Assembly (NCBI RefSeq): GCF_009914755.1
Contig: NC_060943.1
Source of the DNA: the human T2T-CHM13v2.0 reference genome, Homo sapiens
Strand: one strand, 5' to 3'
Length of the DNA: 64,000 nt
A model generated the notes under the pieces. The model did not search any database, was not told the origin of the DNA, and saw nothing but the letters and a program-made list of their open reading frames with translations. Positions 23,991 to 49,137 of this stretch are shown here, in pieces; positions within the stretch are counted from its first letter, which is position 1; each line of letters begins with the position of its first letter. Position numbers and translations under genes: made by a program.

Positions 23991-24184
23991 TCCCATTCTT
24001 TCCTCCTGGCCTGGGGGGTGCTGTGGATTTTGTGGGCCTGGTGGGCCAAGATGACATCTCGGTGATCCACCACGCCGCCCCGCCGCCTCAGAGGGGGGCC
24101 CTCGAAGCAGATGCTGAGCCGGGGAGGCCGAGTGTCCTGCAGGGCGCTGGGCGTGCCCCGAGCTGCGGTTGTGCAGGGCGTCAT
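23991..24184 (-). CDS. CACNA1A: Coding part of an alternative upstream exon: 65-aa N-terminal extension (MTPCTTAARG...VDHRDVILAHQAHKIHSTPQARRKEWE) of a CaV2 voltage-gated calcium channel alpha1 subunit, most likely CaV2.1; the rest of the gene lies beyond the left end of the window
   Basis: Seen: ATG at 24184 and 64 codons plus 2 nt before a consensus donor TGGGA|GTGAGT at 23991, in unique, CpG-rich, non-repeat sequence. Recalled, not searched: the HQAHKIHSTPQARRKEWE motif directly precedes MARF in extended CaV2 isoform models, and CACNA1A has ...cag|A ATG GCC CGC just before its start, so GA+A gives Glu in frame. The Alu density fits 19p13. Confidence 0.7.
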
Positions 24185-24294
24185 AGTAACTGGGGCGCGA
24201 GAGCATGGAGTCGGGGACCCAGGAAGACTTCAACATCCACGGGCCTCGCTCAGAAATCCCAGGGTCTTCTCCCTCCAGCACAGTGAGGGGGAAA
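23991..24294 (-). other. CACNA1A: Internal exon (304 nt) of a minus-strand transcript
   Basis: Acceptor TCTCTGTCTCCTCTTTCTTCTTCTAG|TTTCCC (AG at 24296-24295) and donor GGA|GTGAGT. CpG-retaining unique sequence between Alus. Confidence 0.8.
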
Positions 24295-45778: not shown

Positions 45779-46659
45779 AGGCACAGAGGGCTGAGTGGCT
45801 CCCCTGGGTCACACGCCAATGAGTATGTGGCCTCCAGGGCTTCTCAGATGCTGACTGGCTCATGACTCACCCAGCCTCAAGTTCAAATGCAGATTCTAAC
45901 TCAGCAGGGCTGAGTGGAGCCTGGGACTGGCCAAGACCTGCACTTTGAGGGGAGGATTTCTTCCCCGGAGGCTAAGTCAGTCCTCCCTCGTCCACTGGAC
46001 AAACTTGGCCTATAAGGGGGTGGAAAATGCTTACCCAGAGCGTTCGTCTGTCTGTCACTGTGGAGACAGCTAGGGTTGAAGGATCCTGGAATAGAAGCTC
46101 CCTCATTTGCCCTGGGCCCAGAGGGCCCTCTGGTCCTATGCCCTAACATTTTAAATAATAATAATAATAAATGAAACCCTCTGCCAGAGCTTTTGATGTC
46201 CACGAGTTTTACAGGTCATTTGCTCAGTAATTTCACTCAGTGTCAAATCCACCCTCTCCCTCCTGACCCCTGTAATGATCTTCTGTTTTCTTTTTGGGGA
46301 GGCTGCATTGAATTGAACCCATCTTATGTGGAGGGAAAGTGGCATTTGCACCGAGTGACTTTTTTTTTTTTTTTTGAGACGGAGTCTCGCTCTGTCGCCC
46401 CAGCTGGAGTGTGATGGCATGATCTCGGCTCACTGCCACCTCCGCCTCCCGGGTTCAAGCAATTCTCCTGCCTCAGTCTCCTGAGTAACTGGGACTACAT
46501 GCGCCTGCCACCACGCCCGGCAAATGTTTTGCATTTTTAGTAGAGATGGGGTTTCACCATGTTAGCCAGGATGGTCTCGGTCTCCTGACCTCAAGTGATC
46601 CGTCCACCTCGGCCTCCCAAACTGCTGGGATTACAGGCATGAGTCACTGCGCCCGGCCA

Positions 46660-49137
46660 CCGAGTGACATCTTGATACATCTCCTGAGATCTCTGTGTCT
46701 TGGAGGAAAATGGAGTATCCACACAGGGATAAACTCAGCCTCTTAGACTTCTGTAGTTGGGGAGACTTCCTGCAGCCTGGTATTGGGGTGTTGAGGATGG
46801 ACTAGGGGTCACATGGGTAAGGGGAGGTCTGTGTCAGCTGTAAGCACCTGAGATCCCTGCAAGCAACTGAAGGCTATCCCTGAAAGAGCAGGTGCAGGAC
46901 ACGGCAAGGCTGCCCTAGAGTCACTGTCTCTGAACAGGACAGGAGCCCTGAGCCAGGGATACCTAGAGAATATTCCTCCACAGCACCTAGGGCTTTGAGG
47001 AGAAGGAGGAGAGAGAGAAGCTTCCCTCTTGTTGGTTCAGCCTCTGGGAAGGTGCTCTGACCTCCTGTTGACATTCTAAATTGGCTCCTTCTCCTGGGTC
47101 AGTCTCTCAGGAGCCTCTAAGGAAGGAGCCTGGAGCAATCAACATGATCCCCATGCCCTGCCGTCCCCAGCAGCGTCTGTTGTACGAAGCTGTTAGCTTC
47201 AAAGGAAGGAGAGGGGAGAAGAGGAATTCTGCTGCCAGTTTTTCCCACTTATTGAGAAACAAAAGCCACCCAGACAACTCGGTTCAAAATTAAAGAAAAA
47301 AGGCGGAAGGGGCAAGGGGGGAATGGCTTAGAGGGGGTGTCCAGCTCTTTCTCTGCTTTTCCTTCAAGTGGGGCAAGAGAGGGAAGAATATTAAATATTA
47401 AAAGGAAGAAGTGGTTTCCTAAGACGATGTAATTATTCCCAACAGCCTAAACTCCATCTGCCATTTATCTCTCTTTTCCCAACACATTCACGCCGCGTCG
47501 ATCACAGCAAACAAGGCCCAGGCACACAGGCGTCGGGAACTTTTGTTCGGGGTCCCCAAAGCCATGGGCAATTGGGGGGTGGGGAGCGGTGAGGGGATAT
47601 TTCATAATTCTAAATGTTGTCACTTGTTCAAAGCAGCACGAGACTTAAAATGTGGACTTGAATGAGGGGGGGTGGGGAAGATATAAAAAAGTAGAATTTG
47701 ACTTAGGTCAGAAATTCTCATTCTTGGGAAAACGTCACATGTTCAGGGCAGATGGCAAAGACATCGGTTGCTGGGAGGGGGGTTGCCAAGGGCAATTGAA
47801 TGAAAATGGATTTTTAAGAAAGAAACAGGAATACGCTGGAAATGAAGAGTCTGCCCCCCTTCTTCCCAGCAAGAGAAACTGTTCAGAAAAGGGAAGAGGT
47901 TCTTAAGGCAGAAGCAAGTGAAATCTGGAAATAAGCTGCCCGCCCGCAAAGAAAAACTCTTCATAGAGGGAGCAGGGGAAGATCTTTGTATTTCTACCTT
48001 TGCAGATGGAGGTAATTTGCAGCAAGGAAAGAAAGATTAAACTCCCTGCAGGACTTTGCCTCCAGCGTCCCCCGCTCTCAGAAGCCCCACTCACCTGTAT
48101 CGCATCAGCGCTGGGGCTCAGGCGACGCGGCTAGTGGTCAGCACTGCGAGTCCTCCAGGGGTCCCGAGGGTCCCATCTCGTCAGCACCCAGGGGTCCGAG
48201 CTATCTGAAGTCCATGCATCCATGGCCCACCCAGTGGAAAGAAGAAGGGTGGCCCAGAGACAGGAGGGAGAAAAGTGGGTGCCAAGAAGAGCAGTTTTCT
48301 GAGCAGAGGGCTCCCCACAAAAGCAGACACTGAACGGGGTTGCTGTATCAGCTGCCAAGGGAAAAAAAAAAAGAGGAGGAGGAGGTTTCCCTGATGCTGG
48401 GAGGAGGGAAAGGAGGACCGATCGTTCTCAGCTGCTGATCATCTTTAGCTAAGTGCTACACGGGGACCCAGCCTGGGGAGATCAATCCAGGCAAGGCAGA
48501 AGCTGAGAACAAGCCAGGCCACTGCTCCTCAGGGGGAAAAATAATTCACGATTTCTTGCTCTCTTCTCTATGCCCCTTAACACCGCACTGGGACCTCCCA
48601 GCACAGGGCAAAACTGTTGTCTCAAAAAGGAGACTTTTTCCCCCCGTTCGGGCTTCCCTTAAAGAGCAGAGGAACGGTGGTAAGAAGAGTATTCTCTCTC
48701 TTCCACTGGTTCCTGTCGGGGGTCCGGGGAGGGGGCGTGTAGAATAGGCATCAGGCAGCAGGGATATGGAATCGTGTTATAATTTAACCATCTCCACTCC
48801 GCCACATTGCAACCTAAATTATTTATGCTCTTAGAAAAATGATAATTAGAGGACAGCTGCTAGCCTCCTCTCTGAGTCTGTCGTGTTCATTCTGGAAACA
48901 GCTTCCCAGTACCCTGATCTCCTCCCTTAGGCAGAGGGGTTGTATTATTAAAGAAGAAAGGCAGGAAAAGGAAAGTTGAGTCCTTTCATGCAAAACACCA
49001 ATCCATTACAACTTGGTAAGTTTGTTTGCAATCTGTGTAGACTTATGCTCTCAAAACTAGGGTAATCCCATGTCTCTTTTCAAAGGGGCCTCCTGTTAAA
49101 GATAGGGGTTTTGTTTTTCCTATAAGAAGCATCAAGA
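46660..49137. promoter_or_regulatory. Alu-free, CpG-enriched promoter/enhancer-like region around the 48-kb exon
   Basis: About 2.5 kb without Alu in an Alu-saturated window, with many retained CpGs, a GC/KLF box GGGGGAGGGGGCGTG (~48726-48740), CAGCTG E-boxes and an X-box-like GTTGCCAAGGGCAAT (~47782-47796). Confidence 0.6.
48095..48351 (-). other. CACNA1A: Upstream 5' exon (257 nt if internal; could also start at a local TSS)
   Basis: Strong acceptor CCTCCTCCTCTTTTTTTTTTTCCCTTGGCAG|CTG and near-perfect donor TACAG|GTGAGT at 48095. Contains GCCATGG (ATG 48223) and a second ATG at 48105. Sits in a ~2.5-kb Alu-free, CpG-enriched stretch. Confidence 0.7.

What the first reader, a model, noticed from the sequence alone, without database searches (positions are those of the whole stretch)
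23991..48223. Fossil of a ~145-aa N-terminal extension of the CaV2 channel, broken in this genome
Seen: joining exon 48095-48351 to exon 23991-24294 and reading from the strong-Kozak GCCATGG (ATG 48223; 129 nt to the donor, phase 0) gives MDAWTSDSSDPWVLTRWDPRDPWRTRSADH*PRRLSPSADAIQ|FPPHCAGGRRPWDF*ARPVDVEVFLGPRLHALAPQLL*RPAQPQLG. The three stops (TAG 48133-48131, TGA 24252-24250, TGA 24183-24181) can each be reached by a single C>T from CAG or CGA. The 304-nt exon is 1 nt short of the 305 nt needed to run into the ...DHRDVILAHQAHKIHSTPQARRKEWE frame. Inference: an ancestral two-exon alternative N-terminus has decayed through 2-3 nonsense changes plus one frameshift, while splice sites and the C-terminal motif stayed intact. 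The third TGA overlaps the ATG at 24184, so one ACG>ATG change could have created the start of the surviving 65-aa form.
Basis: partly seen in the sequence, partly recalled or inferred. Interest (0 to 1): 0.9.

Follow-up and report, generated by a model that had tools for sequence, protein, structure and literature searches.

The report
Conserved upstream CACNA1A coding exon, frameshifted

Summary
The reconstruction fails. Exon B (23991-24294, minus strand) is a real coding exon conserved from sharks to mammals. It has a paralogue in CACNA1E and none was found in CACNA1B. It ends in a near-invariant 32-residue motif (RRRGG...TPQARRKEW). A 3' splice site lies 1 nt before the canonical ATG of exon 1 in both CACNA1A and CACNA1E, so the exon adds an N-terminal extension in front of MARF; 29 of 105 database proteins show this junction. 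The tetrapod CaV2.1 extension is about 92 residues and starts inside exon B, in frame 2, which has no stop in human. Human lacks 29 nt relative to colugo, so the two ancestral ATGs (24236, 24206) are now out of frame. Only ATG 24184 reads into the motif and MARF, giving a 65-residue extension. A human-lineage frameshift is therefore real. The nonsense changes, the two-exon structure and the ~145-residue size are not supported. No primate sequence or transcript data could be reached.

The parts
23991..24294 (-). Exon B: conserved upstream coding exon of CACNA1A (N-terminal extension exon), 304 nt
   Evidence: Sequence and splice motifs. Homologues in 103 of 437 named candidate proteins. Paralogous exon in CACNA1E.
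23991..24184 (-). Surviving human reading frame (frame 3): ATG 24184, 64 codons plus 2 nt. With the first base of the exon-1 acceptor it gives Glu and then MARF.
   Evidence: Two human database proteins named CACNA1A start here (P0001, P0002).
23993..24088 (-). Core motif, 32 codons, RRRGG...TPQARRKEW, nearly invariant from shark to human in both 1A-type and 1E-type proteins
   Evidence: 13 invariant columns in 60 sequences. Human 1A against 1E: differences by codon position 8/1/15, dN/dS 0.16.
24156..24236 (-). Cut-off remnant of the older N-terminus in frame 2, 27 codons from ATG 24236 with a second ATG at 24206. It now opens 156- and 146-codon out-of-frame ORFs that end inside exon 1.
   Evidence: Colugo residues 1-46 match frame-2 codons 1-46, 36 of 46 identical.
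24155..24158 (-). Approximate junction of the frame switch. Human lacks 9 codons plus 2 nt (29 nt) that colugo has here.
   Evidence: colugo residues 47-55 have no human counterpart; frame 2 before this point, frame 3 after it.
24295..24315 (-). 3' splice site of exon B (AG 24296-24295) with its pyrimidine tract
   Evidence: The colugo partial model P0007 begins at the first full frame-2 codon of the exon.
23985..23990 (-). 5' splice site GTGAGT of exon B. Read through, it gives GAG TGA, which is why 55 of 105 database models end exactly at ...KEWE/D.
48095..48351 (-). Exon A: candidate upstream exon, non-coding if it is real. Good splice motifs, not repeat-masked, no evidence of conservation or use.
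48131..48223 (-). It would be an upstream ORF in any transcript that holds exon A.
48103..48105 (-). ATG in exon A that is in frame with frame 2 of exon B (4 codons before the junction), in weak context

Best explanation
Exon B is an ancient coding exon shared by the CaV2.1 (CACNA1A) and CaV2.3 (CACNA1E) genes. It lies about 94 kb upstream of canonical exon 1. It ends after two bases of a codon and joins a 3' splice site that sits one base before the canonical ATG. The result is an extension placed in front of the normal N-terminus (...KEWE-MARF...), not a replacement of it.

In tetrapod CaV2.1 the extension is about 92 residues. It starts at a Met inside exon B, has a variable first part (with an SPPSYY motif in many lineages) and ends in a near-invariant 32-residue motif. 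In the human lineage 29 nt were lost between the two parts. As a result the two old start codons (24236, 24206) now open out-of-frame ORFs of 156 and 146 codons that run over the canonical start. The ATG at 24184, formerly out of frame inside the Tyr-Tyr-Asp codons, is now the only one that reads into the motif and the channel, giving a 65-residue extension.

Shown: homology, frames, the frame switch, the acceptor, and the in-frame junction. Inferred: that the exon is spliced and translated this way in human, and what the extension does. My best guess for function is a regulatory or partner-binding module on the cytoplasmic N-terminus.
For: A paralogous exon in CACNA1E was found by six-frame search of this genome (E 3.6e-9; 1.8e-8; profile search).

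103 of 437 named candidates match the profile at E<=0.01, with source names from sharks, lungfish, gar, teleosts, amphibians, reptiles, a bird, a marsupial and placentals, labelled P/Q-type or R-type.

29 of 105 proteins read ...KEW(E/D) directly into M[AS]RFG.

The human exon-1 acceptor is ...ctctttgcag|A ATG and the CACNA1E one is ...aaacctcag|G ATG. The reading from ATG 24184 stays open through exons 1 and 2.

The coding signature in this genome alone is clear: 32 core codons of 1A against 1E differ 8/1/15 by codon position, pN 0.155, pS 0.577.

Frame switch: colugo residues 1-46 match frame 2 (36 of 46 identical) and residues 56-110 match frame 3 (43 of 55). The tetrapod profile built without human sequence places positions 1-32 on the frame-2 piece (E 8.3e-6) and positions 33-91 on the frame-3 piece (E 1.7e-29). 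Bat and camel N-termini hit frame 2 by tblastn (E 3e-7 and 0.002).

The human letters are the same in two database proteins that come from other contigs.
Against: All non-human evidence is predicted proteins. No transcript, ribosome or peptide data were reachable.

The only two human database proteins with this start do not continue into MARF. P0002 continues into an exon at chr19:13644827-13644901, inside RefSeq lncRNA LOC107985287. P0001 continues into exon-2 letters read in another frame (the exon-2 assignment is my reading).

RefSeq annotates nothing in this window.

Two upstream out-of-frame ATGs would lower translation from 24184.

No CpG island or promoter was found in the window.

The vole N-terminus does not align to frame 2 (score 28).

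Full-length channels (over 422 residues) could not be searched because of the length limits of the protein search, so I cannot say how often the extension is annotated on whole channels.

No primate other than human was seen, so the age and fixation of the 29-nt loss are unknown.
Confidence: 0.8

Rival explanations
1. One reading: an ancestral two-exon extension of about 145 residues began at ATG 48223 in exon A, ran in phase 0 into exon B, and decayed in human through 2-3 nonsense changes plus one frameshift.
For: The letters, splice motifs and the strong context of ATG 48223 are real. CaV2.3 and fish CaV2.1 extensions are indeed 130-155 residues long.
Against: The stop count equals chance (4 observed, 3.5 expected). 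No stop-free piece of this reading, or of any frame of exon A, matches the 103 related proteins held at the time (best E 0.09). Profiles of fish-1A, tetrapod-1A and 1E extensions hit nothing at exon A. DNA of exon A against the CACNA1E exon gives z 1.4, with 43 of 300 shuffles as good. Orthologues align to frame 2, not frame 1. The marsupial, turtle and python models start at a Met inside exon B. The long 1E form lies in one exon.
Confidence: 0.03
2. In human the extension is dead. Exon B survives only as a 5' leader or non-productive exon, and its old ATGs act as overlapping upstream ORFs. The ORF from ATG 24184 is intact only because the deletion is recent.
For: Both human database proteins with this start run into non-channel sequence. 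Two out-of-frame ATGs precede 24184, and their ORFs overlap the canonical start. RefSeq has no gene here. The first part of the extension is already loosely conserved in placentals: SPPSYY is not kept in bat, camel, sheep and vole.
Against: The 64-codon frame has no stop. Its core is identical to other mammals' over ...RDVILAHQAHKIHSTPQARRKEW. ATG 24184 has a purine at -3, whereas the two earlier ATGs have T at -3. The exon-1 acceptor is intact.
Confidence: 0.3
3. The frame switch is an error or a private allele of this assembly rather than a feature of the human lineage.
For: Only one human genome was read directly.
Against: Two database proteins labelled Homo sapiens, held on two contigs of another length (longest 61,612,450), and a UniRef entry begin with the same 64 residues at 100% identity.
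Confidence: 0.03

Closest known systems
Upstream extension exon of human CACNA1E (chr1:180768558-180768995, + strand, T2T)
   Same: It has the same core motif: 23 of 32 residues are identical, and 11 of the 20 codons that differ change synonymously. It has the same exon end (TGG GA|GTGAGT). An acceptor lies 1 nt before the canonical ATG. It sits in the same place, tens of kb upstream of exon 1.
   Different: The CACNA1E frame is intact in human, 145 residues from its first ATG in a single exon, with 86% identity to a fox protein over 99% of its length. It carries an extra N-terminal segment (...LALPEEEAWR...) that tetrapod CaV2.1 lacks. It lies inside the RefSeq gene span, whereas the CACNA1A exon lies outside it.
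Predicted CaV2.1 extension in other tetrapods (colugo P0007, Dromiciops P0009, turtle P0010, python P0029)
   Same: This is the same exon with the same junction to MARF. The core is identical or nearly so.
   Different: In these species one frame runs from the first Met to the exon end (about 92 residues in Dromiciops and colugo). In human the first 27 codons are in another frame and 9 codons are missing.
Human database fragments named CACNA1A (P0001, 81 aa; P0002, 89 aa)
   Same: They start at ATG 24184 and share the first 64 residues, so this start is already in public annotation.
   Different: Neither continues into MARF. One runs into an exon that RefSeq calls lncRNA LOC107985287, the other into exon-2 letters out of frame.
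Alternative first exons of L-type channel genes, for example long and short N-termini of CaV1.2 (recalled, not tested here)
   Same: An upstream exon with its own promoter changes the cytoplasmic N-terminus of a CaV alpha-1 subunit.
   Different: Those exons replace one another. Here the upstream exon is added in front of the whole canonical N-terminus through an acceptor inside exon 1.

Membership tests
CaV2.1/CaV2.3 N-terminal extension exon (defined here from database proteins) | Core motif RRRGG-x5-D-x-I-x-AH-x2-HK-x3-TPQARRKEW at the exon's end | tested here: met
   Human frame 3 holds it. The profile matches it at E 1e-30 in this genome. 13 columns are invariant in 60 sequences.
CaV2.1/CaV2.3 N-terminal extension exon (defined here from database proteins) | The exon ends in phase 2 at a GT donor, and exon 1 has an acceptor 1 nt before the canonical ATG, so the reading runs into MARF | tested here: met
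   29 of 105 related proteins show the junction. Use of the junction in human RNA could not be tested.
CaV2.1/CaV2.3 N-terminal extension exon (defined here from database proteins) | One uninterrupted frame from the conserved first Met to the exon end | tested here: not met
   In human the conserved Mets (24236, 24206) are in frame 2 and the motif is in frame 3.
CaV2.1/CaV2.3 N-terminal extension exon (defined here from database proteins) | Purifying selection on the protein frame | tested here: met
   Human 1A against 1E core: dN/dS 0.16 and codon-position differences 8/1/15. This was tested for the core only, between paralogues, not along the human lineage.
   4 observed against 3.5 expected; 72% of shuffles have 4 or fewer.
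Upstream ORF in a 5' leader (ATG 48223) | An ATG in good context, a short frame, and a stop before the main ORF | tested here: met
   G at -3 and G at +4, 30 codons, TAG 48133-48131. Whether exon A is transcribed or the ORF translated was not testable.
Pfam families and solved structures | Match of the extension to any curated domain or PDB chain | tested here: not met
   0 families at E<=1 for 4 proteins. 0 PDB sequences at E<=1.

The most novel reading that the evidence does not exclude
Vertebrate P/Q-type and R-type calcium channels carry an unstudied N-terminal module that predates the split of sharks and bony vertebrates. It has a 32-residue, nearly invariant motif and is made from an upstream exon spliced one base before the textbook start codon. 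The human lineage has cut off the first third of the CaV2.1 module, including the SPPSYY segment, and turned the two old start codons into out-of-frame ORFs that overlap the channel's start. That would change how this isoform is made or regulated in the human brain.
Probability: 0.35. Interest if true: 0.8.

Novelty: new member of a known kind. Interest (0 to 1): 0.6.

Why it matters
CACNA1A and CACNA1E are major genes for ataxia, migraine and epilepsy. RefSeq shows no gene at all in this window. A coding exon 94 kb upstream of the annotated gene would be missed by exome designs and by variant interpretation.

The depth and strictness of conservation of the 32-residue motif in two paralogues argues for a function on the cytoplasmic N-terminus. 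From recalled literature, that region takes part in G-protein modulation of CaV2 channels.

The human-lineage frame switch gives a concrete, testable difference between human and other mammals in one isoform of a key presynaptic channel.

Nine literature searches found nothing on this extension. The library lacks most subscription journals and the supplements were closed, so this is weak evidence that it is undescribed.

Tried and rejected
**Exon B replaces exon 1.** I first read exon B as an alternative to exon 1, spliced to exon 2. The phases fit and the junction codon would be GAT. I dropped this as the main form once 29 of 105 proteins showed the junction to MARF and the acceptor before the ATG was found.

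**Exon A as the lost first part of the long extension.** I tested whether exon A holds a decayed copy of the extra N-terminal segment seen in CaV2.3 and fish CaV2.1. An 11-of-12 base resemblance around the ATG cluster, seen by eye, did not hold up. The local DNA alignment gives z 1.4, the profile searches hit nothing there and blastp gives nothing below E 0.09.

**A short soluble protein.** Many models of about 240 residues end soon after exon 1, which suggested a short protein made of the extension plus the N-terminus. I rejected this. Those tails (...EW-PYPF) are read-through of a U12-type intron that begins ATATCCTTT, so the models simply failed to splice intron 1.

**A CACNA1B counterpart.** None was found by peptide or profile search of this genome. 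Its exon 1 has no acceptor before the ATG.

**Dating the deletion.** No primate protein other than human appeared in three protein searches. No vertebrate genome collection was available.

**Full-length channels.** Whole channels carrying the extension could not be sought, because the protein search sees only 0.55-1.75 times the query length and no long query was at hand. I did not try to get round this.

**Structure and look-alikes.** The Atlas search gave only scores of 0.79 or less, which is noise. Pfam and PDB gave nothing.

**Papers.** PMC8205089: find mode, 0 occurrences of the term in the main text. PMC8744310 and PMC5448149: one passage each, irrelevant. PMC12465193: passages only, with 0 occurrences of 'N-termin'. 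Supplementary files were not opened. Isoform tables in them, for example those of PMC12465193, could bear on the claim that the extension is undescribed.
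Full report
**Setting.** The window is T2T chr19:13702001-13766000. CACNA1A lies on the minus strand and its RefSeq start is at 13631840. The window therefore covers 70-134 kb upstream of the annotated gene, and RefSeq places no gene in it. RefSeq records only one silencer and two enhancer elements here. Exon B (window 23991-24294) is about 94 kb upstream of canonical exon 1.

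**Check of the observation.** Exon A 48095-48351 has a T-rich tract plus AG and a CAG|GTGAGT donor. Exon B has a pyrimidine tract plus AG at 24296-24295 and a GTGAGT donor after 23991, and is 304 nt long. The translations match letter for letter. The whole reading is 144 codons with 4 stops. Composition predicts 3.5, and 72% of 5000 shuffles have 4 or fewer. The stop density is therefore that of non-coding sequence. The remark that each stop is one C>T from CAG or CGA holds for every TAG and TGA. Exon-like pairs of splice motifs under one simple rule number 10 on the minus strand and 3 on the plus strand of the window. Exon A's motifs alone are weak evidence for an exon.

**What exon B is.**
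- A six-frame search of the same genome with the 64-residue frame-3 peptide found one clear relative at chr1:180768864-180768992 (E 3.6e-9). This lies inside the CACNA1E gene span, about 70 kb upstream of its canonical exon 1. The ORF there ends with the same ...TPQARRKEWE and the same donor.
- The reverse search and a profile search found only these two loci and nothing at CACNA1B.
- The first protein search was limited to 35-112 residues. It gave 6 named hits of 6 candidates (18 unnamed candidates left out). Two were human fragments named CACNA1A that start at ATG 24184, and four were single-ORF proteins of bat, camel, sheep and vole.
- A profile search covering 80-255 residues gave 103 hits at E<=0.01 among 437 named candidates (7563 unnamed left out). 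Source names run from sharks through lungfish, gar, sturgeon, teleosts, amphibians, turtle, snakes, geckos and a bird to a marsupial and placentals. Where labelled, they are P/Q-type or R-type. By a crude rule, about 44 are 1A-like and 58 are 1E-like.
- The last 32 residues are nearly invariant, with 13 invariant columns in a 60-sequence alignment.
- Within this genome alone, the 32 core codons of CACNA1A and CACNA1E differ at codon positions 1/2/3 by 8/1/15. Eleven codons differ only synonymously. pN is 0.155, pS is 0.577 and dN/dS is 0.16. This is a coding signature in frame 3.
- No Pfam family and no solved structure matches the extension.

**How it joins the channel.**
- 29 of 105 related proteins run from ...KEW(E/D) straight into M[AS]RFG, the canonical N-terminus. 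55 end exactly at KEWE/D, which is what read-through of the donor (GAG TGA) gives.
- Human exon 1 has a pyrimidine tract and AG one base before the canonical ATG (...ctctttgcag|A ATG GCC). CACNA1E has the same arrangement (...aaacctcag|G ATG GCT). CACNA1B does not.
- Exon B ends with two bases of a codon. With the first base after the acceptor they make Glu. The reading from ATG 24184 is open through exon 1 and exon 2.
- The exon therefore adds an extension in front of the whole canonical N-terminus. Splicing to exon 2 is also phase-compatible, but I found no protein that shows it cleanly.

**The older frame and the human break.**
They match frame 2 of human exon B, which has no stop at all.
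- Colugo P0007 residues 1-46 align to frame-2 codons 1-46 (36 of 46 identical). Residues 56-110 align to frame-3 codons 46-100 (43 of 55 identical). Residues 47-55 have no human counterpart. Nine codons plus a change of frame means human is 29 nt shorter here.
- Camel and sheep have the same spacing as colugo, and bat is two residues shorter. Marsupial and turtle also have the longer segment. The human state is therefore the derived one.
- Local-alignment scores over 10 species are 18-43 for frame 1, 28-176 for frame 2 and 153-255 for frame 3. Frame 2 beats frame 1 in all 10, but for vole both are at noise level (28 against 23).
- A profile of 12 tetrapod sequences without human places positions 1-32 on the frame-2 piece (E 8.3e-6) and positions 33-91 on the frame-3 piece (E 1.7e-29). 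It finds nothing else in the window below E 0.4.
- The first Met of the bat, vole, marsupial, turtle and python proteins corresponds to human ATG 24236. The first Met of camel, sheep and many fish 1A-type proteins corresponds to ATG 24206.
- In human both now open out-of-frame ORFs of 156 and 146 codons that run across the canonical start and end inside exon 1. Both have T at -3.
- ATG 24184 has A at -3. It lies across the Tyr-Asp codons of the old frame and came into frame with the motif through the 29-nt loss. Whether its T is old or new cannot be told from proteins.

**Exon A.**
- Nothing ties exon A to coding sequence. There is no DNA similarity to the CACNA1E exon (z 1.4; 43 of 300 shuffles reach the score). 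No profile hit falls there. No blastp hit is better than E 0.09 for any stop-free piece of any of its frames.
- If exon A is transcribed, ATG 48223 (G at -3, G at +4) heads a 30-codon upstream ORF. Two further ATGs overlap it in the other frames. ATG 48105 is in frame with frame 2 of exon B.
- The colugo model is 5'-partial and begins at the first full frame-2 codon of the exon. This supports use of the exon B acceptor there but says nothing about what lies upstream.

**Status in human.** The frame from 24184 is intact and its core is identical to other mammals'. Against productive use:
- The two human database proteins with this start do not go on into MARF. P0002's tail maps to chr19:13644827-13644901, inside RefSeq lncRNA LOC107985287. 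P0001's tail looks like exon-2 letters in another frame.
- Two out-of-frame ATGs precede the start.
- No CpG island was found in the window.

I put about 0.3 on the view that the human extension is no longer made.

**Limits.**
- All cross-species evidence is predicted proteins of 35-422 residues.
- Whole channels, primate genomes, transcripts, ribosome profiling and proteomics were out of reach.
- Nine literature searches found no description of this extension, but the library is partial and supplements were closed.
- From recall, not checked here: GENCODE lists CACNA1A transcripts that start far upstream of the RefSeq start; the CaV2 N-terminus takes part in G-protein modulation; PPxY motifs bind WW domains of Nedd4-type ligases; and voltage-gated channel genes keep U12-type introns.

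**Verdict.** The break is a 29-nt loss inside exon B that separates the old start codons from the conserved motif. It is not a string of nonsense changes in a two-exon frame reaching back to exon A.

Noticed in passing
G000 chr19:13631284-13631292 (outside the window; locus L014); also CACNA1E (L017) and CACNA1B (L015): Intron 1 of CACNA1A begins ATATCCTTT, the look of a U12-type AT-AC intron. Read-through gives W-PYPF in all three CaV2 genes. This explains the ...EWPYPF tails of many short predicted proteins.
   Followed up: partly
G000 chr1:144571099-144571380 (-), locus L016: A second copy of CACNA1B exon 1 on chromosome 1. It matches the query exactly as well as the chr9 locus does (74% identity, E 3.9e-35). 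It is possibly a segmental duplication.
   Followed up: no
G000 chr19:13644827-13644901 (-), locus L020: The tail of the human protein P0002 maps inside RefSeq lncRNA LOC107985287, 13 kb upstream of the CACNA1A start. That 'lncRNA' exon is therefore joined to exon B in an annotated CACNA1A transcript.
   Followed up: partly
window 24180-24197 (-), frame 2: The 1A-type extension carries SPPSYY(D/E), a PPxY-like motif, from sharks to marsupial and (as SPPGYY) colugo. It is not kept in bat, camel, sheep and vole. In human it reads SRPSYY and sits in the cut-off frame.
   Followed up: partly
window 48213-48223 (-): Three overlapping ATGs, one in each frame (48223, 48219, 48215), sit within 11 bases of exon A.
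   Followed up: no
window 13547-13795, 21921-22215, 45611-46332: RefSeq functional elements: one silencer region, one K562 'CtcfO' enhancer tile 1.8 kb from exon B, and a NANOG-H3K4me1 hESC enhancer 1.8 kb from exon A.
   Followed up: no
window 55990-56228 (-), 25647-25900 (-), 13110-13221 (-), 6855-7216 (-): Further exon-like stretches on the CACNA1A strand, each with a pyrimidine-rich acceptor and a GTRAGT donor. They might be other upstream exons or chance.
   Followed up: no
database proteins P0020, P0023, P0024, P0034, P0040, P0065, P0071: Several fish models that hold the extension exon carry unrelated names (Axin, IF-2-like, TmcA, Asterix with PF03669, natriuretic peptides). These look like fused or misnamed predictions.
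   Followed up: no
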